In this document: piece by piece, positions 10,641 through 45,300 of the stretch
Layout of the letters: every line of letters begins with the position of its first letter
Position numbering within the stretch: the stretch's first letter is position 1
DNA from: Candidatus Omnitrophota bacterium
Lineage (GTDB): Bacteria; Omnitrophota; Gorgyraeia; Zapsychrales; Zapsychraceae
Assembly: GCA_050250375.1 (NCBI GenBank)
Contig: JBFWOS010000003.1
Coordinates: forward strand, 559,286 to 623,285
DNA length: 64,000 nucleotides
Direction of reading: 5' to 3'
Notes under the pieces: generated by a model
Seen by the model: the letters and a program-made list of their open reading frames with translations, nothing else
Told to the model about the DNA's origin: nothing
The model's database searches: none
Made by a program: the position numbers and the translations under genes

Positions 10641-10841
10641 AGAACAATGGGCTAGAATTTAATGAAAATCGTATCTGATCTTACGCCTTTATTACCCTAA
10701 ATGCTTCCAGTTATTATATTTAAATAAAGCTGAACTATCCGAGTGGGCAGTTGAGACTTATTCTTATATATTTAGTCCACCCTGTCAAGGTTTTTGTCCT
10801 GCGGCCCCTCAAGTATATTTTTTCTGGACGCTTAAAATATT

Positions 10842-10850
10842 ATCTGTTAT
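10842..10850 (+). promoter_or_regulatory. Candidate extended -10 element (TGtTATAAA) upstream of the 10893 gene
   Basis: tgttataaa sits 43 nt upstream of the ATG. A GAGG Shine-Dalgarno lies 8 nt before the ATG. Confidence 0.3.
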
Positions 10851-10892
10851 AAATGAATTAGTTTTATATAACCCGGTCAACCAGAGGTCTCC

Positions 10893-11282: not shown

Positions 11283-11290
11283 CATTCCCT

Positions 11291-13059: not shown

Positions 13060-13061
13060 CG

Positions 13062-14042
13062 CTAAGCCGCCCTCCTCAATTTGGCGATAAAAAAACCATT
13101 CATAAAATCGTCGGGGAGGATCCTGAGGCAATTAGAAACTTCCGGAGAAAAGGTCAACTCTCCCCAGCGCTCCACCGCCGGATATGTATCTACGCGTGTG
13201 AATTCAGCGGTCGATATTCTTTCGGCAAAAAAACGCCCCTTCTCTTTTCTCAGAAACCAGTCAACCACCTGTTCATTTTCTTCCGGGGCAAACGTACAGG
13301 TCGAGTAGACTAATAAACCTCCGGGTTTCAGCCAGCGCGCGGCGTTGAGCAAAATCCCTTTTTGTTTTTTCCGCATTTCCCTGATCTTGCGCAGACTCCA
13401 GTAAGCAAAAGATTTTTTGTCCGACGGATCAAAACGGCCTTCAGAACTGCACGGGGCGTCCACCAGAATTTTATCAAACGCCAGGCCCTGCGCCCTGTAT
13501 TTTCGCGCATCCATCAGTACCGTCTTAATATTTCCCGCCCCCTGCAACTGGATCACTGATTTAAGTTTAAACATCCGCTGCCTGACTCCTTCAATCGCCA
13601 GAATTTCTCCCGTGTTATTCATCATCTGGGAGATCTGGGTCGTTTTACTTCCCGGAGCGGCGCACGCATCGAGAATAATCTCTCCGGGCCGCGGGTTCAG
13701 GACTACCGGGACCAGCAGACTGGACAAGCCTTGACGATAAACCGCGCCTTCTTCCTCCAGATTTCTTAACTCGTTTAAATTGTCACCATTTTTGATGATA
13801 AAGGCATTTACGAACCACGGAACCTCTTCAATACTCAACCCCGATTGTGTAATCCTTGCGAGGATGACTTCTCTAGATTGACCGGTATTGACCCGGAACG
13901 TAATAAACTTTTCTGTCCCGAACGACCGAATGACTTTTTCATACAGACCGGCAGGAATGATCTGCTTTAATCGATCAATAAAATCTGACGGGAGCAATTT
14001 TTCTGTTTCGGTCGTTATTATTTCTTCCATTCTATTTTCCAA
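13062..14042 (-). CDS. RsmB/RsmF (NOL1/NOP2/Sun) family rRNA cytosine-C5 methyltransferase
   Basis: 326 aa. SAM-binding DACAAPGSKT and catalytic DAPCSSEG / TCT motifs are characteristic of the Sun/RsmB/RsmF family. Confidence 0.8.
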   Translation of the reverse strand: MENRMEEIITTETEKLLPSDFIDRLKQIIPAGLYEKVIRSFGTEKFITFRVNTGQSREVILARITQSGLSIEEVPWFVNAFIIKNGDNLNELRNLEEEGAVYRQGLSSLLVPVVLNPRPGEIILDACAAPGSKTTQISQMMNNTGEILAIEGVRQRMFKLKSVIQLQGAGNIKTVLMDARKYRAQGLAFDKILVDAPCSSEGRFDPSDKKSFAYWSLRKIREMRKKQKGILLNAARWLKPGGLLVYSTCTFAPEENEQVVDWFLRKEKGRFFAERISTAEFTRVDTYPAVERWGELTFSPEVSNCLRILPDDFMNGFFIAKLRRAA

Positions 14043-14180
14043 TCATTACTTTTACATAAGCCCGATGGTTAAGCCATAAAAAGACAAAATCTGCGTCTAT
14101 TCATAAGACCGTATTATAAATCCTTAACCAGGATTTCGTAACAGAAATATTACCATTGCTTTTGATAGATTGTTTTATAA

Positions 14181-14192
14181 CGTGCATATGCA
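14181..14192. promoter_or_regulatory. Perfect 12-bp palindrome GTGCATATGCAC in the intergenic region upstream of the rsmB/F-like gene
   Basis: Shares the GCATATGC core with a 14-bp palindrome upstream of mutS. Function unknown. Confidence 0.2.
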
Positions 14193-14213
14193 CATTAAAA
14201 ATTAAAAAATTTT

Positions 14214-27300: not shown

Positions 27301-30300
27301 CCAGGGCATTCTGATTTTCCTGAATGAATTCGAGAGATTTGTCTCTTGATACGACCGGAAGCGCGACCAGTTTTGGATAGGTGTTTTCAACCAAGCCCGG
27401 ATCAGCCGTTTCTCTAATTTTCAGGTACAAGGCGTCAAACAATCTGGTCAAATATTCAATCAATAAATCCAATAACGATGTGTCTTTCGTCCAATGCTCG
27501 GCAAGGACATATTCGGCGGCCCTTTGCGAATGAGTTTGGTCCATATCAGGAATGACCAGCGGTACATCAATGGATTTACCAATAGTCAGCGTTTCTTTGA
27601 CAACATCCAGCCCGCCTAGTATTTCTTCAACGCTGATGACCGGCAAGGCTAATGAAACATACGCGGCTTCGCTTCCGTTGTTTCCGGATTCAATCGCATA
27701 GGCTGATGAAACCAGACGTTCAGCCGTTTTGATTTTTCTTGTTTCCGGTTGTTCTGACATTAATCCGAAGACAACGGCCCAGGCTGGATTATCTTGACGG
27801 TCTTGTTTGAATGCCTGCCATTCCGGCCGCTGATCCAGTTCAAAACGCTGGGCGATCTGCTGGACGTACCGCATGTCTTTTTCGGCCACTTTCTTGTCAT
27901 AGAAGGTTCTCCAGGCGGCATCGGTGTCAGTCAGTTCAGGAACACCGCGGGTCAAGACAAGCTGTTTGGCCAAAAGCGCCTGGTCATCTTGACCGGCACT
28001 GCTGTCGCCGGTATTGGTGGCCGCGTAAAAGACAGCACCGACCGGGTTGGCGTTTACAATAGTGTCTTGTTTTACAGTTTGTTCTACCTGAACATCCACA
28101 ACAGCCAGGTCATGAACGGCCGGCAAAGTTACACCGGTTAACACAGTCTCTATCGCACCGCTTATTTCCGCGCTTCTCTTGCCTTCTTCTATTTTCTGAT
28201 CGGATACGATCCAAAGCTCACCGAATAACCTTCTTAAATAATTGATCAGAATATCCAGCAGTGAATTATCTTCAAATAATTTACCGATGTTGATCGTAAC
28301 GATTATTTCTTCTTCCTGGGCTGCATCAACAACCGGCAACATGAACGGCACCGCCAAGGCCTTTTGAATGAGGGTTATGCTCGGTGATTTGTCTTCCGGC
28401 GGCAGAATCATGGCTTTGGCGGAATCAGCCAGAATATTGAGGATGATCTGCCGGATATCCCGTTCAGCCAGCATTGATTCGTCCTCGCCTTCCGCTTTCT
28501 CAGCCGTCAGGTTATGCCCGAAAGCTTTCGCCTGCGACGGATCAATTAAGTGCGCGATCAATTCATGCGGAAGTCCGGTCATGACTTCTTCGCTGTTGTC
28601 AACCGGAACAAAATCCAACCCTTCAAGACTGATGCCCAGGGCAGTTAAACTTTCAAATTGTTCCCGGGTACCAACGGCCAGATGGGCGCCGGATTTGATC
28701 ACCGGACCGACCAGTTCATGTTGGAAAATTTTATCTTGATCGAATAAACTGAACCGGGTCGCGACCAGCTTGACTTCACCGAGCCTCAAGTTGTCTTGTT
28801 CCACATCCACGAACCCTGCCCCGAACGGATGGAACAGACCTTGATGGACAATCCCGCCATCGGAGAACTGCGCGTGGAACGGATCGGCGCTGGCTTCAAC
28901 CTGCTTATCATGGTATTCGGCCTTTTCATTGATCATACCGAGAACCTTGAGCATCTTGCGCTGGATAACGATGTTCTGCGCGTCTGTCCTTCTGAATTTC
29001 TGGATTTCTTTGGACGGACCGCCGACCAGGTGAAGACCGATCAACTCGTGAAGCATGGCTTCGGCGCGTCTTTCATCGGTATATTTTTCACCGGACATCT
29101 CTTCCGGATTTCGTCCGATATCTAACAAGAATCCGTCGTTCAGATCGGACGCGCGGGTGATAATGACATTGTTGTGGTCTTCATCCGCGAACCCGGCCGG
29201 GAAGGCGTTCTTCATCAGGTGTTCGAAAATAATCCTTTGGGTGGCGCTCATCCCCTTGAACACATCCAGATCACCGATGCCTCTGAAGTCAAGATCAAAC
29301 CCGTTTTCAATCAGGACATCATTAATGTCTGCGATGATAACGGCCGCGTCGGATTTAGATCCATCTAGAGTTTTTACGGCTTGACGAATTTTTTCTACAC
29401 GTCCGATAAAGGCTTTTTCTTTGGCGCTTAATGTCTGCGGTTTCGGACTGCTGTTAGCGGCAAATACCCGTTGGAACATCCTTTGATCTTTTCTTCCGCT
29501 GAAGTCGTCCCCAAAATGCGCCGCGATCCTGGTGATAATCTGATCATAAACCTGCCGGTCAAATAATTGACGTTGTTCATCCTTGAATTGATCCAGCATG
29601 CCTATTGTTTCCTGGGCGCCCAATTCAACCAGCGCCAGCACATCGATGGAAGGATTGTTCGGGTCAAGCGCCCGGGCCATCATGTCTCTTAAGTCTTCCA
29701 TCAATGCCCGGAAAGCTCCGGTCATTTGTTCCGGTTTAATCAGGACTTCATCCAATCTCTTCACGATGATTTGCGCAGAACGATGATAGGATGAATATTG
29801 CGGGTCAGCCGGATTGATTTCACTGATCTTCAAAGCCGCGCCTAATAATTTCTGCATGTACAGGTTCCATTTTTGGAAATATCCGACAAACTTGTTGTCG
29901 TTGGCCCGTTTGTCGTCCAGTTCCAGCGCCCGGTCAAATCCCTGTTTGGTCACCCGTCTTGTTATGACTGTCGGTTTTTTCTTGTTTCCATTTTCTACTT
30001 GATCACGGATTATTTCCTGTTTCGTGAAGTAAACGGATTTATGGGCCTTTTCTGTGCCTTTAAGATCGACCTCGACAATTTCCGGGGTGCCGTTTTCTTT
30101 AATTTCGTAAACAGCCCGGCTGATTCTAAGTTTGCTGGTAAACGGCTGTTTGACATCCAGTTCAAACTGACGTTTCGCGTCGGCCCGGATGACACGGTTG
30201 TCATGGATCGCAAGGTCGTGGCCGATCAGGCTGAAACGGTGCATCAAATCTTTATATTCTTTTTCGGTATTGTCGAAGTACGGAACTTCCAAACCTTTTT

Positions 30301-33300
30301 CGTAACGTTTTCCTTCGATGGTTACCGTTTGAGCCAGAACTTGTTTTTCCAAAATGAGTTCGCCGGATGATTCTACTGTCTTGATCATCAATACAGGAAT
30401 GTAGACACGTTTGCTCTTTCCGCCTTCGGTATATTTGTAAACAAACCGCTGTTCATACTCGACCCGTCCGTTCTCAACAGCGATGATCTTGCGTTTGTAT
30501 TGGTCACTACCTTCATTCCGTTCAACAAAGGTGACTGCGTTCGACTGTTCATCTTGCTGAGCTCCGGTCATAAAGGCCGTATCTGTAACGATCATGTTGG
30601 TTTCATAAATCAATTTTTGTCCGTAACTCAGCTCTCCGCCGAAATTCAATTCAAGTGGTTTATCTTGATGATCCGCGGTGATGCTCATGGCGCTGGCGGC
30701 AACAACAACGGTCTGACCGTCAGCGTTTGTTTCAAAGGCCGTAGCCTGGTATGTTTCAAAACCGGTTCCGGCATCGATGGAAACATTGATTGCCGTCGTT
30801 CCGGTCCTGTTGAGGGCAATTATGATCCTGCGTTCGGTGTTTTCCGTGATCAGCTGATTGATTTTTTGGTTGACTTCCGACTGGGTGATGCGGCCGGCCT
30901 GGCTCTTGGCCGCAGAGACCATACTGTGGATTTGTGACCGGACTTCCAGAGTATCAAGGATTGTTTCAGCCAGGAACCGCTGACGGCTTACATCGCCTTC
31001 CGCGACAGCATGTTTAATATCGCGGCGCATCGTCAGGTTAACGTTCGGATCGTTCTCAACAATAATGATCAATTTGGCCCGATTAATATCCAGACGTTGT
31101 ATGCCGGAACCTTCTCTCAAATTTGAACGTGAGGTGAACTGGATAGCTTCCGCTGTTGCAGTTGATCCGATAAATACCGTGTTGGCTTTAGTCGGTGCTT
31201 CGCCCCGGATCTTAGCCAGGATGTTGGAACCGCCGGAGAGACCTAACTGAACGACGATGACTTCCAGGTTAGGATCTCTTTGGGCTTGCTCAACCAATCG
31301 TTTGGCCGCGGCTTCCTGCACCGGATCCGGCTGACCTTTCAATACGGCATCTTCTCCGACAATAACGATTAATTTCTCCCTGCCGAATGAGACTTTCTCG
31401 CCGTCCATCAGTTCAACGTCCCTGACCCTAAAGACATTGTCCGTCCCTTCAACCGGACTGGCGGTTCGGAGTAAACGTTCCCGTAATTTTCCAAATCCCA
31501 GTGCGTTCCAGATGGAAACGAGGATGACCCGGGCGCTGAGCGTGTTCAATTCAGGATCCGTTATCGTTTTCAACAAGACGTCAACCACCGGTTCGCCCGG
31601 CCGGTCATAGCTGGCCCTGGTCAAATCAAAGTTTAATTCCAGAACATCCGGCAGCCCGGATTCTTTACCGGCCCTGAATATCCTGGCGCCCTGCATTTCC
31701 GCAGACAGGCGCATAGATTCTGCGGTCGCCGTCATACCGATCGCACCGGCCACCAGACGATGGACATCCGCCGCCTTGACAGCGTGTTCAACCTTAGACA
31801 ACGCAGCCGTCATGTAATTATCCAGTTTCAGCCGTTCGATGGTGACGATGGCCCGGGCCAGATGGGCGTCTCCCGGGATAGTTCCCGGTTGAGCGAATTT
31901 GTTGACCGTCAACATATAAATACCCAGGTCACTGTCGGCATCCCGTCCGTAGACCGGGTTATCACGGGCATACATCGCCTCGACAAACGCATTCACTTGT
32001 TCCGTGATCTCTTTGCGGGTTTCCGGAAGCACTTCAATATTCTCTTCCCTTAATTTATTAATTTCACGCTGATATTCTTTGAAGAACCTGGCCAGCGGAG
32101 ATAACTGTTCACCCTCAAGCAGGTATTCGGAACGAAGGACCGGGCGTCCGTGCTGATCGACATCAAAGATCAATTCTTTCTGACCGTTGACTTCGCTTAA
32201 CATACGGTCGAGTATTTCATATTTGATCATATCCTGACGGGCCATCATTTCCAGTTCAAGCAGTCTCTGTTTCGCTTCGGCATTACCGGCCTGCGCCTGT
32301 TCTCTTAATTCCTGCAGTCTTCGTTGTCCCTTGATCAAATCAGCGGACCGTTCAAACGCGTCGCTTTCGTCGTTGATTTCAAAGACACGTTTGCCGGTTT
32401 CGCTGTTCAATAATTTGAGAGACACCAATTCTTTTGAATCTTTGAAGTCTCCGACGTTGATCCCTTCTTCAAGGTTAAATTTCCCTTCTTGTTTGACTCT
32501 TCGGATTCCGCCTTTTTCAACGATTTCACGCAGCAACGGATGGTTCATGAAATCACCAACCTTGGCTTCCGGTACGTTAAACAGGATGATCACTCTGCCG
32601 TTTGTTTTTCTGTACAACCAGCGGGCAATGGCTGCAGCCAGGTCAGATTTACCAATACCGGTATCGGCGGAAACGATATTAAATTCGCCTTTCTTGTCCA
32701 TAAACGCGCGGGCTGTTTCTATAAAGACCTTGGCCGCGTGGATCTGTTTGAGACGGCCTTCGGATAAGTCGTAACGGGTATTGTCACCTTTGCTGATAAT
32801 ATAGGCTTCCATATCGCGTTTGACTTCAGCCAGGAATTCGTATAATTCCAGGACTTCATTTTCAAACCGGCTTCGGTTTTGTTTGGCCGATAATTCTGCC
32901 GCCCGTTCTCCATCTTTAAACAGACGCTCGACTTCTTTTGATACTTCGATATAATGCAGGTTGATCTTTTCTGTTGATTTTGTCTCGGATGGTGTCTTTC
33001 TGACGGACGGTTCACTGGATCCCTGTTTATTATTTCGGCGGACAGATGGATCGACACGGTCCAAAATACGGCCCAGCCGGGATGATGACCGTTTAGCGGA
33101 CAGAGCCGAACGATCCTGATTATCTGAACCTCTTTGAACATCTTTCCGCCCGGAACGGACCACCCGTCTGAACACTCTCAATATCCATTCATACCACGGA
33201 TCTTCCGGCGGCTCCGGAGGACCGTTAGCCGGACCAGACAACAACGAGTCTTTAGCGTTAGCTTTTTTATTATCTGAACGGGAATTGGATGATGACCCGC

Positions 33301-36300
33301 CCTTGCCGCCAAACCCGAACAGGCCACCCATAGCCATCGCCATCATTGTGTGTGCATCACCGCTAGAATCTGTTCCACTGACTAACGCATATCCGAGAAC
33401 GACTGCCAGGATGATAAACGGCCCGAAGTGATCTCTGAAGACCACCCGTCCGATAAGATGGAACAACCGTTCAACTAGATAACCGACATACGCGGCCATG
33501 GCCGTCAAGAACCCGATCTTGTAAATGATTCTCCAGTCTGAGGTCACGTTGAAGTATTCAAAAATATCATCCCATGCCCCGTCAAAAATGATCTCTTTGA
33601 TTTCCGGAGAAACAGCTGCCCCAACAACCGCCGCCGTCAAAATAACGACAAACCAGACAAACCACCGCACCCACTGTTTGTAATCGCTGGCCGGGTTTCG
33701 GAAGATATTCTTCGGTCCTTCCACAAAGACCAGTGAATCATGGATCTTCTTGATGCGGATCGCGCGTTTGATCTTGCTGTATACGACCTTGACCGCGGCC
33801 AGACCGAGAAGACCAAGGACAACGGTTAATATGGAGACAGCACCTCTACCCTTAGTTCCCGATTCCCCAATCGTAACTTTAGTTTCTTTATAAGAACGGG
33901 TGCTGTCTCCAAGATCCTGAGGATCAAGTTGTGCAAGAACAGGGGCAATGCCATTAACTTCAGTCTCCGATTCCCCAATCGTAACTTTAGCTTCTCTTAA
34001 AGAACGGTCATTGCCCCTGTTGTTTATAGATTGGACAGCGTCATCACTTTCAGTCTCCGATTCCCCAATCGTAACTTCAGTTTCTGTTAATGAACGATGA
34101 ACGCTGTCCTCGATTGCTGTTTGGCCGCGGGCTTCATTCGTGGTCAGGATAACCAGCGCGAGAACGCCCAGGATAAACGGCATTAAATATCTCACGGCAC
34201 GCATGATGCGGTTTGCTGCCGGGACCGGTTTCGATTCCTTAATCATGATACCGGCGTCAACCAGAGATCGGGCGTGTTCAATCATGCCGCCGTTTCGTCT
34301 GGCGATAAAGTATTGTTTGATGTGTTCCAGCCCGCGTCCGGCGATATCATCAACGATGGCCGACATAAATCCGCTCCGGTTTCGGCTGCTGATGAAGTTG
34401 ACGACGCGTCTGGCGTTGACGAATGTCTCTTTATCCAGAAGGATCGCCGCGATACCCAGGGCGGCGGTTCCTTCAACCTTCATGCCGAAATGCTGCAGAA
34501 GGGCCATGGTGTAAATAGAATCCACATCCGCGACCCGGTAGGCGCCGTCGGCATATTCACGGAAGCGGTCAATCGCCGCCGGTTCAGGTGTGGCTGCGTT
34601 GCCGTCGGCCGGCATGTTGTTGGCGGCCGGGATTTGTTCCCTGATCGGAACGGCCGCGCCCTGCTGGATCGTGCGGAAACTCATGTCGACACGCGGTGTG
34701 GTGAACCCGTAGACATGCGCTTGCGGAATTCTGTTCTTGATTTGGAGTCCGGTTCCGGCAATCCATCCGGTTGATCCCATGGCCATGGTCACAACTAATT
34801 CACCTTCTTTTAGTTGTTCAATATTGATGGCCGGATCAGCGATGTAGCTTTGAACAACTTCTTCTCCGCCGGCGGCATAACCTGTACCAACCCATTCTTC
34901 AGCTGCTTTATCAAAATGACGGATCTGCATTTTGTGCCGCGGATCTTCATCCACCAGTTTCCAGACGACCTGTTCGGCTTCTTCATAACTTCCGTAATCG
35001 GCGTACAACCGTCCGCCGGCGTTTTTAATATTATTCTTTTTGTGTTCCAGGATATCGGTATCTGAATAAACGACTCCCTGCATGGTCTCAACCATTTCAA
35101 TAAATTGCGCCTGCGTTAAACCGCCCAGCGGCTCTCCGGTAAAGATGCCCGGATAATCCCGCTGCAATTCCAGGAACAGACGGACGAAATAAGCGTATCC
35201 GTTTTGCTGTAATTTTTCTTTGACCGCACGCACCGCGGTGACGGTGGCCAGGCCGTGGTTACCGGTAGAAACAGCAATGACTTCATACGGGATCTGTCCT
35301 TTGAGGACACGGACAAAGACTTCAACCGGCGCGCGGTTCTTGAATGATCCGGTACGGTATTGCCCCTGACCTTCGGCTTCGAAACCGTAAGATTCGTCTT
35401 TGAAGTCGATTCGGATCTCGCGGCCTTCTTCCCGTTCCAGAATGTCATTGACGAACCGGTTGATGCCTTCGATGGTTGTCAACGGCGTGGCTGACGGAAC
35501 AAGACCGAATTCACGCTGCAGCCGCAAGGCCGCGTGGACCTTTTCATCCGTAATGCCGCCGGCTTCTCTTCTGGCTTTAGCTTCGCGATGCGATAACGGC
35601 GTCAGAATAACCCGGTCAATACCGACCGGCAATCCTGTTGGGGTTGTTTGCGCGCGATGGATGCGACCTGACTTCTTCAATAACGCTTTAACGGAGAATA
35701 AAATTCTCTGGGCAGCAGCACGAACTCCAGTTCCCGATTCCCCAATCGTAACTTTAGCTTCATCTGTTAATGAACGGCTGCTGCCCATATCTGTTGTGTC
35801 GCGGTACGCGACAATAATCGGTGTTTCAAAATGTTGTAACGAAATTGTCTGCGGATAGCCTTGAATGGTTTCTCGCACTTCTACGGTGAACCCGAGGCTT
35901 CTTAGATGACTGATGAAATAATCTTGATATTCCGGTTTGTTTTCATCCTGATGAAGTCTGACAAACACGAGACTCTTAGACAATGGTCTGAAGTAACGAT
36001 CCAGATTCTCGACCAGGTCTTTGTTCGCGCTGCGGTTCGGCGCATTGATGCTCACAATATCAAATTGACGTCTGAACCGTTTATGTTCTGCGGCATCACT
36101 GATGCTGATATTTCTGTTTTCTGCGCGGCCTTTGCGGTCATGCTGACGTTTGTTTTGAATCAGATAAGAATGGTCAATGCCGGCGACTCGGGCGAATAAG
36201 CCTGTTTCTTTATTTTCCGCCACAATCCGGTCGGCGAATTCATTACGGGTACGGCCGGATCCCAGGTCAATCAACGATACCGGTTTTTGCGAACCAAAAT

Positions 36301-39300
36301 AATCCCGGATGATCGTATAGAATTCAGTTTCAGAGGCAGCGCGGTTGACTTCCGTTTCCGATTCCCCAATCGTAACTTTAGTTTTGTCTGTCGAAGATCG
36401 CGCGCTGCCTCTGATATCTTTCCATATGCGGATGAAAATCCATGTAAATGCGACGGCCGCCCCAATAATGATCAGGGCTAAGAACCTGGCCAGGAATGTT
36501 TCCACCGGACCGTCGTAAGACGAACCATACGCCGGAGCGGCCAGGCCTGCCGCTGCTGCAACCAACCCGGTTTTAACGAGAGTATTGGAGGCCATGCGTG
36601 TCACACCAGTTTCCGATTCCCCAATCGTAACTTTAGTTTCATCTGTTAATGAACGTACATGGCCTCCAAAATGAATTCGGGTGAAATGAACAGGGACGGC
36701 GTAATAACCTTCGGTTTCCGATTCCCCAATCGTAACTTTAGCTTCATTTGTTAAAGAAGTTACGCCGTCCCTATATTGGTCAAAGTGATTTAAGACAGTT
36801 CCCTGCGAATTGATCGGGGCAGCACGTGTCACATCAGTTTCCGATTCCCCAATCGTAACTTTATTCTTCTTCGCAAAAGAAACGGACACCGTTTCTTTTG
36901 CTTCGAAGGAATATTCCTGCCCTGCTCCGCCGTAGCGAAGACTGTTTAAGACAGGCTTCGCAGAGGCGAGCGAAGCAAAAATATTGGATTGATCCGCGCC
37001 GCGAAGCAGAATAGTTTCATCTGTTAATGAACGTGTGCCGTCCCGATATTGGTTGACCGCGGCCATGGTGCCGATGCTGATGACCGCGACCAGAGTTATA
37101 AATGCTGTCCGGCTGAAAACAGCGCGCTTGATCCATTGTTTGAATTGATAAAGCCGAGGATATGATTTTTTCTGATAAATGTTGATGTAAAGATCGATAT
37201 AGACTTCTTCGAACCTCTCCAGGCTGTCTTTAACGCTGTAGTGTTCCAGTCCGTATTCTTTTAACAATTCCAAAGTGATCGCCCGGGCGGATTCGGCCTG
37301 ATGGCCTTTCTGTTCATCTTCGTTGAATAGTTGTTTAAACAGTTCGAATGCCTTGGCCTGGTCTTCCATCGTGAAGATCTGACGGACAATCTTGCGCAAC
37401 AGGTTGTCGGCGGCTTCCTTGACGACCGGCTGGTTCTTTCGGGACATGTCGCGCTCGTACAGGTGGGTCAGCACATCGACGGATTTCTGATCGATCTGGC
37501 TGAGCCGGGCGAAGACTACTTCCCCGACAACGTTCGTCAACCCTTCGGCATCTTTTAATACCAGACGAACCACTTCATCTCTGATTTCATCATCGTAAGC
37601 CTTGAATTTGCGTTCAGATTCGTCTCTTCTTTGGTCAACCGCGATAATCGTTCCCAACAGCAGGATGATCCAGGCTGTATTGCGGTTATACGTTGTCAAC
37701 CCGCGCTGAATACTCAACAAATGTTCAAATGAATCTTCGATCAAATCTCTGGTGTCTCGATGTTCAATGTAATCCACATACAGCCACGGGATCAGTGAAC
37801 CGCCGGACATGGCCGCTTCTTTGTTATCCAGTGTCTGCAGAATTTCCCTGACGTCGGATCCTCGAATGACATAACTTTGATTTCTGGACACAAACCGTTC
37901 GATGGAATCTCTTGTTCTTAACAGGTAGACAAACACCGCTAACGAACCGTGCAGGGCGATTTCATCTTCCGGATGAAGGATGATTTCATCGATCTGCAGG
38001 ATGTTTTCCATGACCGTGCGGTCAAGCTGCTGCTCGAGGACATCCATAGCTTCCTGATATTCAGCTGTTTTTCCGATATAAAGCAGATGAATGATCAGGC
38101 CGCCGAGCGATTTCGCAAGGACTTGATGAAGCTGTTCGCTGTTTTGTTTGTAGGCACCGGCGATTCGGAACAGGTTATAGATCAATGTTCCATAGAATGG
38201 TTCTTCAGGAACCAGCATAACGCGCCAAATATCACGGTTTCCGGTGACCGGGTCCCTGGTGTCCAGAACACCCTCACGTAAGAACCGGGCGACGTCATCT
38301 TTAGTTGTATTCGGACTTTGCAGCAACAGCCGGTGGAACGGCGCGACTTCGAGGTTATGCTGCATAATAAATTCTTTGGTTTCATGAACACGGGCCAATA
38401 ATTCCGTTCCGCTGTCGTCGGTCATTTGCTTAAACATTTCAACCAGCTGTTCATCGGTATAAGCCAGATATTCAGCCGAAACAGGTCCGACAATCTGTTT
38501 AAACACGTCAATGAATGAATCCTTGTTTTCAGACTGTTGCGGATCGAGCCCAAGCAGGTTGAATAATTCTAAGCGTTCCTTCGAACTATAGGTGGCCACG
38601 TGGCTTCTGAATTCGAACAGCAATGATTCTCGGGCCTTTTGTTCATCCAGATAATCCTGGATCATCAGCGACCAGATACCGAATCGTACGGCCAGATAAA
38701 GCGTAACCTTCCAGCCGTCTTTTAACCGGACAGGGAAAGCGCCCTGACTTAGAGTATCCGATTCCCCAATCGTAACTTTAGTTTCTTCAAAAGAACGGGC
38801 GCTTTCCCTACCAGATTTATTCTCGAGTAATTTGTTTATGTTAATCACAATCATTGACTCACGGACATCAACGATATACTGACTTTGCGGTTCATTGACC
38901 AGTTTGACAAAATTATTTCTGCGGTTCGTGTTACCGAATAATTCATAGAACCGGGCGTACAGGAAGGCGTATGTATTGAGCGTATCCCGGGTGAATCTTA
39001 AAATCTTGGCTGATTCGATTCTGGATAGTTTTAAATGACCGATGTTTCCGGAATCAATGCCTGAATAACGCAGGCGGACCTGCTGGACGTCAAAATCATC
39101 GGCCAAATGATGAGTTTCAATCTTTGCCAGAAGCTCAGCGGCTTGTTTCTCAAATAAGCTGTCTTCTGTATGTGAACGGATCTCGGCGATAAATCGGGCC
39201 CGTATACCGTAATCCAGTTTCAGGACCTGCGTGGCCAGGGCTCTTGGCGTAATCAGCCAGCGGCGGATGCCTTTCAGGTCGCGTAGTGTTGATAACAGAT

Positions 39301-42300
39301 GAACAACCTCTACGTCAATCGCGTTATAGTTCCGTATATCGGTATATCGTGCAAAGAATTTGGTGATTCGTACAGCGGTATAAATCAATGCTGCGGCAGA
39401 AAGGACACCTGCCAGAACAGCTAACCAGAACCATGCGGTCGTTCCGGAAGCACCCATCAGGAACGGCGTTACGGCCAGGATGACGACAGCGCGCAAAATA
39501 CGGTCACGTCGTAAAGTTTTCGCCGCCGGAGGCGCGCGGGTTTCTTTCGTTGAGACCGTTTGGTTATGTTTCTTTCTGAGACTGAGGACCTGTTTGATCA
39601 ACACAACCGGAATGGTGACAATCACGGCTAACGCCGCCACGGCCAGCCACGGGCTGTGCTCAAATCCCGGTGTAGCGGACAACCCAAGAATCACGGCCAG
39701 GATGACGCTAAACGGTGATGTCATCAGTTTGGTTGACTCCGGCGCCTGCCAATCCCGGCTGGTGATCTTATCTTTGCGACGGATGGACATCAGTTTTTGT
39801 TCAAGGACATCCTGCAATTCTTTGCTTAAAGGTTTATCATCCTTAAGGAGAAGCAAGGTATCGTAAGAAACCTGTCCGATATCCGCATCCCCGATAACCT
39901 CTCCTGTCCCGGCGTGGACGTTGATGCCCAGTTGAGTAAGAACAGAACTCAATACATACAACCAACCAGAGAAGTTAACGGCGGAGATTTCAAGCAGTGT
40001 CCCTTCTTTGCCCTTGTATGTGGCCCCGGATAATTCGATCTTTGTCAGGATGTCCGTTTGCGGGACATTAAATGAGAGTTCAATATTCGCCTGACGTTCT
40101 TTAGTTTGTGTGGCGGTTTCACCCTCGGTGGCTGTTTCTCGTTTTTCTTGCAGGATATCTTCCGGCCGTACTTCTTCATTAATCATGCGTTCGATATCGC
40201 GTTTCATATCGGCCAATAAATCTTCCCAGGCCGTGCTGATGCCGGTGCGGTGTTCAACAAAGAAGTGGTCGATGACCAGACCGGAAGGTCCAAGTCCGAC
40301 TTTGTAGTTACGGCGGGCGAATCCATACGCCAGCAGCACGACAGAAATCTTGTTTAAAATACCCGGCCGGTCTTCATCCATCGGGTCAAACCGGATGAGG
40401 ATCTCTTCCGTCTTGCCTCTGACCGGCGAAGCACTGGACGGATTACTGACTGAAATGTTGATGCGGTCGTCGTGAGAACGGTCTTGCATGACCAAACGTC
40501 TGTCCTCTTCTACTTGTCTGGCCTGTGAGGCGCTCAGCGTTTGCACAACGTAATTCCTGTCACCGATGCGTTTCAGGTCAACATCGAAGACCGGATAGTA
40601 ATCTTTCAGACGCTGCGCGATACCCTGAGGCTGCAGAACGCTCATCTCGATCATGGTAAAGACCGTCAGCAGGGCCAGGCGGATCGGATCGTTTCCTATG
40701 ACTTCCTTGAAGAATTCGGCCATATCCGCCGGATTATCACCCTTACGGATGCGGGCGATCAATGCTTTTTGGTTTTCGATCAACCAGACGATCAGCCGTG
40801 TTTCGCGGCTGAACGGCAGCATGCCCATTCTGGCCAAAACGAAATACAATCGTCCGGAGTGGAACATTCCGTCAATACCGGCCACGATGTGGACCGGAAG
40901 GAACCGGCTCAGGCCGTTGATAATCCATTCCGGTGTGTGACCGTTGGTGTGCATCAACAGGGCCAGGCGCAAAGCCCGTCTCAGGTTATGACGGGTCAGA
41001 TAATCAATGCTTGGTTCCAGTTTGGCCTGCATGTCCGCAAAGACGGCCTGATCCATATCGTGGACCATTCTCGGTTCATGGAACATCAGCGCCTCACCGC
41101 GGACAAACGTTGCGACCGTGTAATGGTCTAACGTCAGATGATGCGGCGGATCAAGGTGACGGCGGTACATCAGTTCTCCGAAACCAAAAACAATCTTGGA
41201 CAGGATATTGTTGTTGGCCTTGTCCGCAAAATATCTTAATCTCCAGACGCCGGCGGTCAACGGCGCGTTGACTTTCATGTATTGGTGGACGAATCTGAAC
41301 CGCAGCAGCATCCATGTCCACCATCCGGCGGTTTCCATTTCGCGTTCGATTCGGTCGAAGATCCCGCCTCTTAACGCGGTCGGATAATTAACGGCAACGT
41401 TGGTCAATAAGTCGAACAATCGCGGCAGATAACTGCGGCGTTTCGGCTGTTGATAATCAATCGCCAGCGCGCGTTGGTTGTCGCGGTGCTGGAATCCGTC
41501 TTCCAGCATGAGATATGTTCCGGTTCTTCTGACAACCACAATGTCGTCCGGAAGGCTGGTGTCGATGGTTTCCGGTACGACCCTCAATTCATCGGCGCCT
41601 GACAGGATGAGCCTCAACCGTCTGAACGCGAACGTAAACAAGCGGTCTTGCGCCCTTCTTAAATCTTTCAGGAATTCCGGAATGATCTCTGCCGGTGTCC
41701 CGGTATAGCCCAGTTGGGCGGCGATCAGGGCGTATTGGTCAACCCTGACCCTGGTGCGGTTGGATTTGATGTTCATTTGCCCGACGACCGCGCGGACTTT
41801 CAGCAGCAGGATGTACGCGCGCCGGGCTTTTTCCAACAGGTCGCGGTCAAACACACCTTTATTCAACAGATAATTCCAAACCGCTGCATCCGGGATGAAT
41901 TCTTCAGAAGCCAAAGCATTGGTATCGGTGTGTTCGGCGATGAAGCCCGCCAATCCGATTGAATAGATTGTCTGCAGGTCTCTTAATGAACCGTTGCCTT
42001 CCTTCAGGTTAGGCTCTTTGGTATTCAAGCCTTCGCGGAAACCGTTCTTTTGGTATCGGATCTGCCATTCCAGACGTTTAAGCTTGGCAAAAACCAGCGG
42101 ATCAACATTGTAAGCCTGTTTCAGTCCGGCGAAGACTTCCATTCTCCAGCCGTTCCAGATTGAACGATCTCCGGCCACATAACGGGTCTCAAGGATAGAA
42201 CTCGCGATCTGGACCTGGGCGAGGTTTTCCGATTCCCAGCGGATGGTTGAAGCGTTCGGAACAAATTCAACCTGTTCATTGAATACTTCCGTAACCACCA

Positions 42301-45300
42301 TGCGGACGAACCGAAGTAATTTCAACTGGCGTTCAAATTCGGCCAATACGGCTTGTTTGTCCGCATCGGATTCATCGACAAACCGTTTGATCGCTTTAAA
42401 TTGATAATCAAAGTCATAAATGGCTTCGACCTTTTCCCGTTCCCCGGCCGGAACGAACTGCATGACTTTATCATGATTTTCTTCATACCCTTTCACTTCG
42501 ATTCTCAAGTCGAGGTCTGAACCCGGGACATATTCACGGCGGGCATAACTTCCGTGGGCCATGAAGGTCACATCCCCGTCATCGCCGAATCGTTCAACCG
42601 TATAACGGTTCAATTGAATGACGATATGGTCCAGCCGGCGGGTGGTCAGGTCAGTCTTAACCTGGATCGGCAGCCGCGCGTGGTCAACCCAGATATAGTT
42701 AAATTCATATTCCCATTGTTTCTTTAAAATCTGTGCTGTTTGTTTGATCGCCTCATTGTCATCGCCGATTGCACTTAAACGAATATCGAGCGTGGTTTTG
42801 ATTCTTTCCAACCGTTCGTTCAAACGCTCTTCCAATTCTTTGACCTGCGCGGCAACTTCTTCTTCGGTGAGATTAGACTGTTCGGATTCTTCGTCTTTCT
42901 TTTTACGGAACATGAACGGCCATAACATGGCGAGTACATACGGATTGTTGGTGGTGGAAGACATGACCGTTGACGGATCCGCGCCCATCAGATAAATGGT
43001 GACGATGGCCGCTAAGACAAACGCCATGATGATAAAACTGATAAAGCCGTTTTGTTTCAGCATTTTTGCCAACTTTTTAATGCGTGAATTTTGTTTTTTG
43101 TTGCTGCCTGCAAAGAAGTATTCATCCGTATCGATCTTTGCCTTGAGGTCGTTGTGTTCCTGTTTGGCCAGGTGGGCGATCACTAAACGGTAAATGATGA
43201 ACGACTGGATCAGATCATTCTTATCAAAGAAGTTTGTATTCAGAACGATTGTGTTTCGGTCAAAGTCGATGGCGAATAAATGTCCGTTTGAATAGATCGA
43301 TGAATCCGTCAAAATAAAGGTGATTTCGCGAGGCAGATCAAATTCCGGCGGTCCGCGCGTCATCAGATCCCCGATGACATCGTTGATTTTCGCCAGGAGG
43401 ATCTCTTCGCGTTGGCTGGCCGGTTCTGATGATGTTTTTTCGTAACGGTTTTCAACCAGCCTGACTTTAAATTCGACGCTCAGGTCTGCGACCACTTGAT
43501 CCATGGTTACGTCATCGGTTTTATGACCTTCTTCACCCTTAACGCCTCTCAGCCATTGTTTGACAAAGTCGAAGAACGATGTGAATACAATCACATTATG
43601 GTTGGCCTTTTCAATAATCTTGAATTCGAATCCAAACTTGTCCGCAAAGGCTTTATTTGTTTCAACAGGCGTGACCATGTCTTGCTGGCCGACAGTGACC
43701 AGGACTTTAATACCGTTTTGCCCGATATTTTCCGCCAAGGCAATTGATTCATCCGCGTCAATTTCCAGATGGCGGTATAACCACAATGTCTCAAATCGCT
43801 GACGGAAGCTGCGTTCAGCCACGTTGGCGTGTTCGATCAGTTTATTGTATAGGTATGAATTAACTCTTAGGAATTGGACCACTTTTCTGAATCCGAGTTC
43901 CCTGAAGAAGGCCTGCATACGGACCAGGGCTTTATTCGGCAGGATGTGAAGCATCATGACCCCCCATAAAATCGGACGGAACATGGAAATTTGTCTGTAC
44001 GGCAGTGACGCGAACACAACACTGTTGATATGGCTGATCGCATCGGAAAGAATGTTCTTGAACCGGAATGACTGCAGCGTGTAGCGGTTGGTCAAAAGCG
44101 CCAGCAGGATCCGTCCGCCGAACGAATGGGCCACGATATCCATTTTATGTGTCCTGACTGAACCGGTTGTTTCATAAACATTTAAATTCACTTGTTTAAG
44201 CAGGGATTTGATCTGCCGTTTCAGCCAGGAAGATTCCTCTTCTTCAACGATTTCAAATCCGTTTTGGGCAAAATGGTTGATGACCCAGGCCAGGAATACT
44301 GTTGACCGGGCGACAATGTGGTCAATCTCAAGAATATTTCTCAGGACAACTTTTTCCTGGATGGTTAATTCCTGACCGCCGATGCTTCCGGTTTCCAGCA
44401 GTCCGCGGATAATCTTGTCGGATCTCCAGTGCTGGATAATGACGATAGTGCGCTGCGGATACAGCCTCTTCAATTCTTCCATGTTAAACGTGAGCGTATC
44501 AACGACACCATGAAGGAACAGGATCGGGCTGCCGCCGGCCTTATGGACCTGGAAGGCGTACGGCACATCGATGGTGTTGTCTGAATATGAATTGTATTGT
44601 TCTTCCTGGGTTGGCACATCTTCCACATAAGTATCCGTATGATGCCGTCCGTTACCATTGCGTCTCAGTCGGGATAAGCGTGAACCGTTACCTTTATAAG
44701 CCTCGATGACTTTTGTCAGGGCTGCCCTGGCGCCGGCCGGTCCGTGTTCCGGCAAGACAATAACGTCTTGCGGCATGCCGGCGTAAATCTTCGGTCCGAC
44801 CATAACGCGGGTGGCTTTCGGCAGGGCCGCGAACATCGGATGATCCAGTTCGCTGTCTCCGATAACCAGAATGTCTTCTTCATTAATTCGAAGATGATCC
44901 AGCAGATCGCGTACCGCGCGTCCTTTATCGGCCCGGGATACGTGCAGAGCGACGGATGACACCAGAACGTTCAGGCTGCTGAACCTTTCGTCAGCGGCCA
45001 GACGGCGACGGATGCTATCGGCCAAATGTGTGCGGAATTCAACTGTTGTATTTTCCAGCCACAACTTCAGATCAAGGGTCTGTCCTTCGAACATGACACG
45101 GTCCAGAGGCATATCATCCGGCAGAGTTCTGAGCCGCTGTCTGGCCAGATTATATTCGTAGCCGATAATGCCCATAACTTCTTCGATTTCATCATCGGTA
45201 GAAGCCAGGATATCCAGATAAATCGGAATATCGTAATCGATCTGGCCTTGACGGTTGAACCGGTAACCAATTCCGCCGTTGGCGGTATACATATATTGCA

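What the first reader, a model, noticed from the sequence alone, without database searches (positions are those of the whole stretch)
34260..36320. A SAM-methyltransferase-like domain and a fold-type-II PLP enzyme, each bracketed by TIGESETE elements
The PLP domain has the diagnostic TGSFK(N)R lysine motif and two Gly-rich phosphate loops (AVSTGNHG, GSTGWIAGTG) of the TrpB/ThrC/CysK/IlvA superfamily. The upstream segment has a Rossmann motif I (LIDLGSGRT). Amino-acid metabolism or beta-replacement chemistry fused to carbohydrate enzymes has no obvious precedent. These may supply or modify a small-molecule cofactor or precursor for the assembly.
Basis: partly seen in the sequence, partly recalled or inferred. 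Interest (0 to 1): 0.5.

Follow-up and report, generated by a model that had tools for sequence, protein, structure and literature searches.

The report
Enzyme modules bracketed by translated RNA hairpins
Two real enzyme-type modules inside a bacterial protein of more than 32,000 residues are separated not by ordinary peptide linkers but by in-frame copies of a conserved, folded ~85-nucleotide element, found only in such giant genes, that may mark how these genes are built or expressed.

Summary
Window 34260-36320 (minus strand) lies inside one giant ORF (14,204 aa in the window; 32,445 aa in the NCBI record), an Omnitrophota-type multi-enzyme membrane protein.

- **PLP module:** a genuine fold-type II PLP domain (Pfam PALP, 77 bits against a cutoff of 35). 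The Schiff-base Lys (K9546), the STGNHG loop, the Gly-rich phosphate loop and the Ser that contacts the pyridine nitrogen are all retained. It belongs to the serine racemase / threonine dehydratase clade, not to the beta-replacement enzymes. It is conserved in a second Omnitrophota giant protein, directly after GlgB.
- **Methyltransferase-like module:** no sequence-model hit. Its AlphaFold model (pLDDT 79) matches only class I SAM methyltransferases.
- **"TIGESETE" brackets:** the main result. They are the translation of a ~80-95-nt three-way-junction nucleic-acid element.
  - 14 copies, one strand, one frame.
  - 22-nt core identical at synonymous sites.
  - 12 of 13 outer-stem pairs covary; G·U 14 against A·C 2.
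  - Synonymous sites are constrained between species (p ~1e-7).
  - It matches no Rfam family and was found only in Omnitrophota giant ORFs.

Its function is unknown. My best guess is mRNA-level punctuation of the giant transcript.

The parts
21362..63976 (-). Window part (C-terminal 14,204 aa) of a giant ORF; the full gene product is 32,445 aa in the NCBI record. Multi-enzyme, multi-pass membrane protein (M23 peptidase, 6PGL/NagB-like, alpha-amylase, GH77, CBM48/GlgB, GT5 glycogen synthase, HAD, alpha/beta hydrolase, GlnD-like nucleotidyltransferase, methyltransferase-like module, PALP; 27 TM-like segments).
35777..36349 (-). Methyltransferase-like module (aa 9210-9400). Predicted class I Rossmann methyltransferase fold. 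Motif I LIDLGSG (36248-36274), (D/E)A motif at ISDAA (36089-36103), invariant NAP motif (INAPN, 36035-36049).
   Evidence: AF2 model pLDDT 78.8, pTM 0.82. The top 50 Foldseek PDB hits are all SAM methyltransferases, E 2e-6 and above. Only 4 sequence homologues among 1.84e9 representatives. No Pfam, NCBIfam or PDB sequence hit.
34286..35593 (-). Fold-type II PLP module (aa ~9462-9897). Lys9546 (35339-35341), AVSTGNHG (35252-35275), GSTGWIAGTG (34748-34777), Ser9863 aligned with the pyridine-N1 Ser of serine racemase (34388-34390). Carries a ~45-aa insertion (35054-35188) shared with the L005 orthologue.
36321..36418 (-). Structured element e9202 (translated ...KVTIGESETEV...), upstream bracket of the methyltransferase-like module.
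   Evidence: CM 83.7 bits. 14-bp perfect outer stem TCAGAGGCAGCGCG/CGCGCTGCCTCTGA. MFE -35.8 kcal/mol, z -5.2.
35697..35794 (-). Structured element e9410, between the methyltransferase-like and PLP modules.
   Evidence: CM 86.5 bits. MFE -35.8 kcal/mol, z -5.0.
34025..34117 (-). Structured element e9969, first of a triple array after the PLP module and TM 9927-9945. Orthologous copy in L005.
33930..34024 (-). Structured element e9999. Its outer-stem arms ACAGGGGCAATG... are the same as in the L005 orthologue.
33822..33916 (-). Structured element e10035, immediately followed by TM 10047-10065.
36576..36900 (-). Array of three elements (e9041 degenerate, e9082, e9117) upstream of TM 9166-9184.
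38721..38815 (-). Solitary element e8402.
58431..58960 (-). Array of five elements (e1688-e1832) after the M23 peptidase module and before TM 1854-1872.
36425..36481 (-). TM helix aa 9166-9184. The positive residues after it place the methyltransferase-like + PLP loop in the cytoplasm (positive-inside rule; inference).
   Evidence: sequence
34142..34198 (-). TM helix aa 9927-9945 closing the loop. Positive residues precede it.
   Evidence: sequence

Best explanation
**Shown.**
- The region encodes two enzyme-fold modules of a giant (32,445-aa) Omnitrophota-type membrane protein.
- One is a divergent fold-type II PLP enzyme of the serine racemase / Ser-Thr (hydroxy-amino-acid) dehydratase clade, with all PLP-binding residues intact.
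- The other is an orphan domain with a class I SAM-methyltransferase fold and an invariant N-A-P motif at the position of motif IV.
- The 'TIGESETE' brackets are in-frame copies of a ~80-95-nt structured nucleic-acid element.
- The element has a 13-16-bp outer stem whose sequence differs between copies but always pairs, a small variable hairpin, and a sequence-invariant arm ACU-AA-AGUU-A-CGAUU-GGGG-AAUCG-GA-AACU-GA-AGU.
- It is selected at the nucleotide level and is translated through.

**Inferred.**
- Both modules sit in one cytoplasmic loop between TM helices 9166-9184 and 9927-9945. They act as membrane-tethered enzymes: the PLP module deaminates or racemises a Ser/Thr-like beta-hydroxy amino acid, and the methyltransferase-like module N-methylates an unknown substrate.
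- The element acts as RNA on the sense strand of the ~97-kb mRNA. It is a stable roadblock that every ribosome must melt.
- I propose it punctuates the transcript at module and TM boundaries, by local slowing of translation and/or protection or ordered processing of the very long mRNA.
- As a by-product, it offers identical in-phase sequence where modules can be duplicated, lost or swapped in frame.
For: **PLP module**
- Pfam PALP 77 bits against a cutoff of 35.
- A profile of the module hits serine racemases 6lut (2.8e-19) and 3l6b (1.9e-14), TdcB 2gn0 and Thr deaminase 1ve5.
- Lys, S-T-G-N-H-G, G-S-x-G and the N1 Ser are aligned and invariant across 5 sequences, including an orthologue at 49% identity.
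- The best NCBIfam models are all ammonia-lyases.

**Methyltransferase-like module**
- AF2 model pLDDT 78.8, pTM 0.82, with the beta1-alphaA-beta2...beta6-beta7 order.
- 173 PDB hits at E<=1e-3; the top 50 are all SAM methyltransferases.
- NAP is invariant in 5 homologues.

**Element**
- The 22-nt core is identical in all copies, including synonymous sites.
- 12 of 13 outer-stem pairs carry compensatory changes. 92% of cells pair, against ~44% when the partners are slid. 0 of 500 shuffles reach the observed covariation score.
- G·U 14 against A·C 2 in the outer stem.
- Covariance-model scores are 46-97 bits on the sense strand against 12-22 bits antisense. There are 14 copies, all inside the ORF, and none in the 21 kb of other genes.
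- MFE -28 to -37 kcal/mol, z -3.7 to -7.1.
- All internal indels are 3-nt blocks.
- Against the orthologous array in L005, amino-acid identity is the same as in the flanks (0.54 against 0.53). Third-position identity is 0.74 against 0.44 (p 6e-8), and identical codons among identical residues are 0.88 against 0.51 (p 3e-7). This still holds after dropping the copy that was found by the search pattern.
- The core is found only in Omnitrophota MAGs among 185,579 species genomes, always inside fully open 8-kb frames and in the same codon phase.
- No Rfam match.

**Topology**
- TM positions and flanking charges.
Against: **Function of the element**
- No tool here shows the RNA exists, folds or does anything. 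Function is inferred only.
- G·T is also the least destabilising DNA mismatch, so a strand-specific ssDNA hairpin is not excluded.
- A pause at e9410 would occur while the last ~35 residues of the methyltransferase-like domain are still in the ribosomal exit tunnel. Simple 'pause so the upstream domain folds' timing therefore fits arrays better than single copies.
- The elements are not at every module boundary (none between aa 1840 and 8400).
- They are absent next to the same modules in other genomes. L005 has none on the N side of its PLP module, and L008/L009 have none beside their methyltransferase-like homologues.

**PLP module**
- The AF2 model failed (pLDDT 38).
- No equivalog cutoff is reached.
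- The residue matching the racemase base Ser is Thr.
- Stand-alone homologues carry signal-peptide-like N-termini, which sits uneasily with a cytoplasmic location.

**Methyltransferase-like module**
- Motif I is G-x-G only, and SAM binding is untested.
Confidence: 0.55

Rival explanations
1. The elements act at the DNA level. They are in-frame palindromic repeats like Rickettsia palindromic elements (selfish MITE-like DNA tolerated only in the one open frame), or ssDNA hairpin/recombination junctions that drive cassette-like shuffling of modules in giant genes. The RNA fold is incidental.
For: - Only the observed frame of the element is stop-free; TAA occurs in both other frames (sequence).
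- The identical core of at least 22 nt, in the same codon phase, would make any recombination between copies frame-preserving.
- Module order differs between species, and breakpoints lie at the arrays. Homology to L005 starts right after e9410, and L003 joins the homologue of our aa 1-108 directly to the array.
- A 405-nt four-element unit is present about 5.5 times in L004 but about 1.5 times in the closely related L003.
- RPEs are a precedent for in-frame palindromic repeats (PMC10969869).
Against: - The arms are not a shared terminal repeat. They differ between copies and stay paired through AU<->GC transitions with G·U intermediates.
- Copies are positionally orthologous and under synonymous-site constraint between genomes with only ~53% protein identity, which indicates old and stable elements, not recently mobile ones.
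- There is one orientation only, and copies lie inside giant ORFs only. No copy occurs in the 21 kb of neighbouring genes, and all exact-core copies in the 2-Mb contig of L004 lie in one 8-kb stretch.
- No transposase or target-site duplication was seen.
- The copy-number difference between L003 and L004 could be assembly collapse.
Confidence: 0.22
2. The element is a transcript- or protein-processing site. The giant ORF is really a fused operon or polyprotein, cut at the elements (RNase III-type or self-cleaving RNA, or protease cleavage of the encoded RSLTETKVTIGESETE peptide) to release the methyltransferase-like and PLP modules as separate products.
For: - Whether giant transcripts or proteins are cleaved is an acknowledged open question, and no cleavage points are known (bioRxiv 10.1101/2023.11.21.568195).
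- The PLP module matches stand-alone proteins end to end.
- The outer stem stacked on the invariant arm would give ~25 bp of helix.
- The same protein carries an M23 peptidase module.
Against: - No ribozyme or other Rfam family matches, even at E<=1.
- The junction strands are too short for a hammerhead core (sequence).
- No Shine-Dalgarno plus start codon follows the elements, so cut mRNA pieces could not be translated.
- The peptide outside 'IGES' is poorly conserved, while the nucleotides pair.
- Amino-acid identity in the elements is no higher than in the flanks, which argues against a selected protease site.
- The elements are missing at most module boundaries.
Confidence: 0.13
3. The two modules are decayed pseudoenzymes that serve only as scaffold or spacer domains of the giant protein.
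For: - The methyltransferase-like segment has no detectable sequence similarity to any methyltransferase model.
- Motif I lacks the third Gly.
- One homologue (P0005) has lost motif I altogether.
- The PLP module scores far below every equivalog cutoff (51 bits against 413) and carries a 45-aa insertion.
- The phylum is reported to lack complete PLP synthesis.
Against: - All four PLP-contact motifs are invariant across giant-protein and stand-alone members at 30-49% identity.
- The NAP, (D/E)A and DxGxG positions are conserved in 4 of 5 methyltransferase-like homologues.
- Conservation of catalytic residues at this divergence is what purifying selection on activity predicts.
Confidence: 0.1

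Closest known systems
Serine racemase / catabolic threonine dehydratase clade of fold-type II PLP enzymes (PDB 6lut, 3l6b, 2gn0, 1ve5; NCBIfam EutB, threo-3-hydroxy-L-aspartate ammonia-lyase, IlvA, TdcB)
   Same: PALP fold signature. Schiff-base Lys in T-G-S-F-K-x-R, S-x-G-N-H-G loop, Gly-rich phosphate loop, and Ser at the pyridine N1 position.
   Different: Only ~30% identity even to its nearest stand-alone relatives, and far below every curated family cutoff. Thr replaces the Ser (racemase) or Ala (dehydratase) in the S-x-G-N-H-G loop. It carries a 45-aa insertion, an N-terminal extension shared with a small family of 460-470-aa proteins annotated 'threonine dehydratase' (Legionella geestiana), and it is embedded in a giant membrane protein.
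Class I SAM-dependent methyltransferases (nearest folds: calmodulin-lysine N-MTase 4pwy, BpumL 4kwc, MnmM 8h26, RsmG 3g8b, METTL21B 4qpn)
   Same: Predicted seven-strand Rossmann-like topology. DxGxG at the end of beta1, an acidic residue after beta2, a (D/E)A motif, and N-A-P where amino-methyltransferases have (D/N)PP(Y/F).
   Different: 8-17% identity, TM-score ~0.5. No HMM or profile match. Only four homologues in 1.84 billion representative proteins, all in very long proteins. Cofactor binding is unknown.
Omnitrophota giant proteins: 'Archaeovorins' (West-Roberts et al., bioRxiv 10.1101/2023.11.21.568195) and 'multi-enzyme metabolic cluster' giants (Nielsen & Lui, bioRxiv 10.64898/2026.06.07.730766)
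   Same: More than 30,000 aa, many TM helices, GT5 glycogen-synthase-like plus GT1, HAD and methyltransferase-type modules tiled along one ORF, with a type II secretion secretin nearby.
   Different: Neither paper mentions a PLP (PALP) module, inter-module motifs, hairpins or palindromes.
Rickettsia palindromic elements (RPEs): in-frame palindromic repeats in protein-coding genes
   Same: Short palindromic repeat, multi-copy, inserted in frame and translated into a conserved peptide, able to form an mRNA hairpin (PMC10969869).
   Different: RPE copies share their whole sequence and are scattered through unrelated genes and intergenic DNA. Here the stem arms differ and covary, the copies are confined to one gene type, strand and frame, they form arrays, and they are orthologously conserved with synonymous-site constraint.
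Translated cis-acting mRNA structures that slow or redirect ribosomes (e.g. the dnaX hairpin and the IS911 three-way-junction frameshift stimulators; my own knowledge, not tested here)
   Same: A stable stem or three-way junction inside an ORF that the ribosome must unwind.
   Different: No slippery heptamer lies upstream. There are many copies per mRNA, and both alternative frames hit TAA at once. No recoding is needed to explain the ORF.

Membership tests
Fold-type II PLP enzymes (Pfam PALP, PF00291) | HMM score above the gathering threshold | tested here: met
   77 bits, E 2e-21, against a cutoff of 35; two stretches
Fold-type II PLP enzymes (Pfam PALP, PF00291) | Schiff-base lysine in the S-x-K motif | tested here: met
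   K9546 in TGSFKNR aligns with the Lys of TGSFKMRG/TGSFKIRG in serine racemases; invariant in 5 family members
Fold-type II PLP enzymes (Pfam PALP, PF00291) | S-x-G-N-H loop (Asn to PLP O3') and Gly-rich phosphate loop | tested here: met
   AVSTGNHG is invariant. GSTG in ours aligns with GGGG of 6lut and with GSGG in relatives
Fold-type II PLP enzymes (Pfam PALP, PF00291) | Ser/Thr hydrogen-bonding to pyridine N1 | tested here: met
   By alignment only: FIS(9863)SRN aligns with IISGGN of 6lut. No usable 3D model
Fold-type II PLP enzymes (Pfam PALP, PF00291) | Binds PLP and is catalytically active | not testable with these tools
   Needs protein biochemistry
Named dehydratase equivalogs (IlvA, TdcB, EutB, threo-3-hydroxy-L-aspartate ammonia-lyase, BhcB) | NCBIfam curated whole-protein cutoff | tested here: not met
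   Best is EutB at 51 bits against 413; all others are lower
Serine racemase | Second Ser of S-S-G-N-H-G as si-face base | tested here: inconclusive
   Thr at that position (S-T-G-N-H-G) in all five family members. It has a hydroxyl, but its role is unknown
Beta-replacement enzymes (CysK/CysM, TrpB) | Sequence-model similarity | tested here: not met
   No CysK, CysM or TrpB model hits the window domain at E<=0.01. Only weak hits for the stand-alone relative P0002
Class I SAM-dependent methyltransferases | Match to a methyltransferase sequence model | tested here: not met
   No Pfam (E<=0.1), NCBIfam, PDB phmmer or profile hit
Class I SAM-dependent methyltransferases | Seven-strand Rossmann-like methyltransferase fold | tested here: met
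   On a predicted model only: pLDDT 78.8, pTM 0.82. The top 50 Foldseek PDB hits are all SAM methyltransferases, probability 1.00, TM ~0.5-0.56
Class I SAM-dependent methyltransferases | Motif I GxGxG and an acidic residue after beta2 | tested here: inconclusive
   D-L-G-S-G-R-T (G-x-G only). The GID acidic residue is present in 3 of 5 homologues
Class I SAM-dependent methyltransferases | Binds SAM and transfers methyl | not testable with these tools
   Needs biochemistry
RPE / MITE-type in-frame palindromic repeats | Copies share the same terminal inverted repeats | tested here: not met
   Outer-stem arms differ between copies, with compensatory changes at 12 of 13 pairs
RPE / MITE-type in-frame palindromic repeats | Dispersed in unrelated genes and intergenic DNA, in either orientation | tested here: not met
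   Within the data held: 14/14 window copies and 31/31 copies in L003-L005 lie inside giant ORFs, on the sense strand and in one frame. None occur in the 21 kb of other genes. Whole genomes were not scanned with the model
RPE / MITE-type in-frame palindromic repeats | In frame and translated | tested here: met
   The ORF stays open through all copies, and indels come in 3-nt blocks
Any Rfam family (ribozymes, riboswitches, leaders) | Covariance-model match | tested here: not met
   Only three sub-threshold chance hits over 33500-39200 at E<=1
Archaeovorin-type giant protein | >30,000 aa, many TM helices, GT5/GT1 modules | tested here: met
   32,445 aa; 27 TM-like segments in the window part; GT5 plus GT1
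Archaeovorin-type giant protein | Divergent SecA DEAD helicase domain | tested here: inconclusive
   Only weak P-loop hits (ResIII, DUF87; E ~0.06) at aa ~10,410-10,465

The most novel reading that the evidence does not exclude
The TIGESETE element is a new class of translated, structured RNA that is specific to Omnitrophota giant genes. It would be a three-way-junction 'punctuation mark' that programmes ribosome or RNA polymerase pausing, or site-specific handling of the ~100-kb transcript, at module and membrane-segment boundaries. That would make it part of the machinery allowing proteins of more than 30,000 residues to be made at all, and it would give the first defined module boundaries or processing points in these proteins.
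Probability: 0.3. Interest if true: 0.85.

Novelty: new variant of a known kind. Interest (0 to 1): 0.68.

Why it matters
- **An open question in the field.** Giant genes of Omnitrophota are a recognised puzzle. The literature asks whether the transcript or the protein is cut into pieces, and notes that no cleavage points or module boundaries are known. [quoted passage not shown]
- **What the element adds.** A conserved, covarying RNA-type structure sits in frame at module and TM boundaries and occurs only in these genes. That gives a concrete sequence feature to test by RNA-end mapping, ribosome profiling, structure probing and peptide mapping.
- **Dual coding.** The element is also a clear natural case where reading frame and nucleic-acid fold are both maintained.
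- **The two enzyme modules.** On their own they are less surprising. They extend the known catalogue of enzymes tiled into these proteins with a PLP dehydratase/racemase-type module, conserved next to glycogen enzymes in two genomes, and an orphan methyltransferase-fold family.

Tried and rejected
- **AF2 of the PLP module** with a 4-sequence alignment failed (pLDDT 38). No fold search was made for it; sequence and profile evidence was used instead.
- **A protein search with the five-element array** as query found nothing.
- **The metagenome scan** (L006) and the **viral scan** (L007) each returned one hit to the core string. Neither is an element by the covariance model, so both are treated as chance.
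- **Known RNA families** are rejected: no Rfam hit.
- **Hammerhead** is rejected because the junction strands (2, 0-1 and ~4 nt) cannot hold the conserved core.
- **Internal translation restart** is rejected. There is no in-frame ATG/GTG/TTG at a fixed distance from the GGGG loop, and that region is base-paired.
- **Programmed frameshift** is not supported because there is no slippery heptamer, although TAA lies in both other frames.
- **An obligatory link between the elements and these two modules** is rejected. Homologous methyltransferase-like modules in L008 and L009 and the N side of the L005 PLP module lack elements.
- **Other hairpin families** at the remaining module boundaries were looked for. 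No other perfect stems of 13 bp or more were listed in the window.

Full report
**Context.** The finding (window 34260-36320) lies inside one minus-strand ORF, 21362..63976, of 14,204 aa, which runs off the window end. The neighbouring MutL protein places the window on NCBI assembly GCA_050181705.1, contig JBFXCX010000002.1, where the gene is called with a 32,445-residue product.

Pfam on the window part finds these modules:
- an M23 peptidase
- a 6-phosphogluconolactonase/NagB-type domain
- alpha-amylase
- GH77 4-alpha-glucanotransferase
- CBM48/GlgB
- GT5+GT1 glycogen synthase
- HAD
- alpha/beta-hydrolase
- a GlnD-like nucleotidyltransferase
- PALP

A hydropathy scan finds 27 TM-like segments. 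The closest related DNA found is in Candidatus Omnitrophota MAGs. The architecture matches the 'Archaeovorin' and 'multi-enzyme metabolic cluster' giant proteins described for that phylum (bioRxiv 10.1101/2023.11.21.568195; 10.64898/2026.06.07.730766). Flanking genes are ordinary chromosomal ones: MutS, MutL, RsmB-like, a secretin, an amidase and a racemase.

**The PLP module.**
- Single-sequence search of the PDB gives serine racemases and TdcB.
- A 5-sequence profile raises this to 6lut 2.8e-19, human serine racemase 3l6b 1.9e-14, TdcB 2gn0 1.8e-11 and T. thermophilus threonine deaminase 1ve5 9e-11.
- In those alignments K9546 (TGSFKNR) matches the Schiff-base Lys and STGNHG matches SSGNHG.
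- GSTG matches the GGGG phosphate loop, and Ser9863 matches the Ser of the SGGN motif that contacts the pyridine N1. All are invariant in the family alignment.
- The best NCBIfam models are all ammonia-lyases (EutB, threo-3-hydroxy-L-aspartate ammonia-lyase, BhcB, IlvA, TdcB), but at 20-51 bits against cutoffs of 331-550. It is therefore a divergent member of that clade, not any named enzyme and not a CysK/TrpB-type beta-replacement enzyme.
- Its only close relatives in the 5.8-billion-protein search are three stand-alone proteins of 460-470 aa. One is annotated threonine dehydratase of Legionella geestiana. They align end to end and have signal-peptide-like N-termini.
- The AlphaFold model of this module was unusable (pLDDT 38).

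**The methyltransferase-like module.**
- No Pfam, NCBIfam or PDB sequence or profile match exists.
- An exhaustive HMMER scan of 1.84 billion representatives finds only four homologues, all parts of long proteins. They share DxGxG, a (D/E)A motif and an invariant N-A-P.
- AlphaFold with this small alignment gives pLDDT 78.8 and pTM 0.82, with the strand/helix order of a class I methyltransferase.
- Foldseek against the PDB returns 173 hits at E<=1e-3, and the top 50 are all SAM methyltransferases.
- The fold assignment is therefore supported on a predicted model. Cofactor binding and substrate remain unknown.
- The homologues sit in unrelated contexts: FkbM methyltransferase, HATPase and M50 peptidase neighbours. 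They share nothing else with this protein.

**Topology (inference).** TM 9166-9184 is followed by a Lys/Arg-rich stretch, and TM 9927-9945 is preceded by one. By the positive-inside rule, the loop carrying both modules is cytoplasmic. This agrees with the 'TM-anchored cytoplasmic domains' reading of the 2026 preprint.

**The PLP module is conserved in a second giant protein.** In L005 (Omnitrophota MAG Gw_Eff_bin_307) the order is as follows:
1. A GH77/GlgB block, 56% identical to our aa 3377-4747.
2. Two TM helices.
3. An orthologous PLP module (45-49% identity, with the same 45-aa insertion).
4. A TM helix.
5. Three elements.
6. A TM helix.
7. A block 58% identical to our aa 10169-10720.

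PLP chemistry fused to glycogen-type enzymes is therefore a conserved feature, not a one-off. Relative to L005, our gene has ~4,700 extra residues, including the methyltransferase-like module, between GlgB and PLP.

**The 'TIGESETE' brackets: what they are.**
- At the DNA level the 22-nt core AAAGTTACGATTGGGGAATCGG is identical in the copies, synonymous sites included. There are 11 matches with at most 1 mismatch, against 0 expected.
- Each copy is flanked by 10-16-nt arms that are complementary to each other but differ between copies.
- All fold into the same three-way junction. It has an outer stem, a small variable hairpin (UUCAU...AUGAA), and an invariant arm with two purine-rich internal loops and a CGAUU-GGGG-AAUCG hairpin.
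- MFE is -28 to -37 kcal/mol, with z-scores of -3.7 to -7.1 against dinucleotide shuffles.

**The 'TIGESETE' brackets: evidence for nucleic-acid-level selection.**
- On a 24-copy alignment from four genomes, 12 of 13 outer-stem pairs show changes on both sides.
- 92% of outer-stem cells pair, against ~44% when the partners are slid. 0 of 500 shuffles reach the observed covariation score.
- The changes are mostly AU<->GC transitions. G·U outnumbers A·C by 14 to 2, as expected for pairing on the sense strand.
- A covariance model finds exactly 14 copies in the window (46-97 bits), all on the sense strand inside the giant ORF. The antisense strand scores 12-22 bits, and there are no copies in the other 21 kb.
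- No Rfam family matches.
- All internal indels in the alignment are 3-nt blocks, and only the observed frame lacks stops. The element is therefore translated through.

**Distribution and selection.**
- The exact 19-nt core occurs in only three places among 185,579 species genomes. All three are Omnitrophota MAGs, all inside fully open 8-kb frames, and all in the same codon phase.
- The model counts 6, 22 and 3 copies there.
- The single hits in the metagenome and viral collections are not elements.
- The triple array after the PLP module is orthologous between this genome and L005.
- In that array, amino-acid identity equals the flanks (0.54 against 0.53). Third-codon-position identity is 0.74 against 0.44 (Fisher p 6e-8). 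Identical codons among identical residues are 0.88 against 0.51 (p 3e-7).
- The result holds when the one copy found through the search string is removed (0.76 against 0.44, p 2e-6).
- This is direct evidence for selection on the nucleotide sequence rather than on the peptide. It also shows that the copies are old and positionally stable.
- Caveat: the other genomes were found by searching for the core, so cross-species conservation of the core itself is partly by construction.

**What the elements do.** Function is not shown by any tool.
- I favour an RNA-level role on the ~97-kb mRNA (roadblock, pausing or punctuation, or protection or ordered handling of the transcript). The reasons are the strand specificity, the G·U pattern, the restriction to giant ORFs and the clustering beside TM helices and module ends.
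- Weaknesses: single copies are badly placed for 'let the upstream domain fold' timing. Most module boundaries have no element. The same modules lack elements in other genomes.
- The main rival is a DNA-level role or origin (an RPE-like in-frame palindrome, or an in-phase recombination junction). Module order differs between species with breakpoints at the arrays. A 405-nt four-element unit differs in copy number between L003 and L004, though assembly collapse could explain that.
- A processing-site role (RNA or peptide cleavage) speaks to an open question in the field. It lacks support: there is no known ribozyme core, no restart signals, and no extra peptide conservation.

**Literature.**
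- Neither giant-gene paper mentions hairpins, palindromes, linkers, motifs between modules, or PALP.
- No paper in the searched library links Omnitrophota with RNA structure or with relevant inverted repeats.
- RPEs are the nearest described in-frame palindromic repeats (PMC10969869).

**Verdict.** The claim of no precedent is not right. The two modules are new members of a known kind of giant multi-enzyme protein. The bracketing elements are the unexpected part. They are a translated, covarying, nucleotide-constrained structured element specific to Omnitrophota giant genes. They are not in Rfam, and I found no description of them in the searched literature.

Noticed in passing
window 21362-63976 compared with L003, L004, L005: Module order in the giant gene differs between Omnitrophota genomes. 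L005 joins GlgB almost directly to the PLP module, so about 4,700 aa of our gene are absent there. L003 has the 6PGL-type module before the multi-TM block, the reverse of our order. Several breakpoints lie at element arrays.
   Followed up: partly
L004 4564-6776 (minus strand) compared with L003 1999-2591: A 405-nt unit of four different elements is repeated about 5.5 times in L004 (22 elements in 2.2 kb) but only about 1.5 times in the closely related L003. This is either real copy-number variation or assembly collapse.
   Followed up: partly
window, every element (e.g. 35709-35787): Both alternative reading frames of the conserved core contain TAA (CAT-TAA-C and AAC-TAA-AG). Any frameshift inside an element would therefore terminate at once. 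No slippery site was seen.
   Followed up: partly
window 36866-36908: A separate 20-nt, 85% complementary hairpin abuts the degenerate element e9041, which lacks a proper 5' outer-stem arm (46.6 bits against 67-97 for the others).
   Followed up: no
P0001-P0003 (stand-alone relatives of the PLP module): These proteins of 460-470 aa, one from Legionella geestiana, start with a signal-peptide-like hydrophobic segment. That would place a PLP enzyme outside the cytoplasm, the opposite of the topology inferred for the giant-protein module.
   Followed up: no
window ~32600-32800 (aa ~10,410-10,465 of the ORF): Weak P-loop NTPase signals (ResIII, DUF87; E ~0.06; motif ADTGIGK) lie downstream of the element array. 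This may be the divergent SecA/DEAD-type module reported for Archaeovorins. The block is 58% identical in L005.
   Followed up: no
window 36900-38720 (aa 8402-9041) and 21362-33400 (aa ~10,200-14,204): Long stretches of the giant ORF have no Pfam domain at all.
   Followed up: no
window 7037-10426: An Asp/Glu racemase, an N-acetylmuramoyl-L-alanine amidase and a type II/III secretin lie about 11 kb from the 3' end of the giant gene. This fits the reported proximity of giant genes to type II secretion genes.
   Followed up: no
L009 (JAGOSC010000055.1) and L005 (JAGOSC010000003.1): The same MAG that carries the orthologous PLP module also carries a methyltransferase-like homologue (P0005). It lies on another contig that is one open 15.8-kb frame without elements.
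   Followed up: partly
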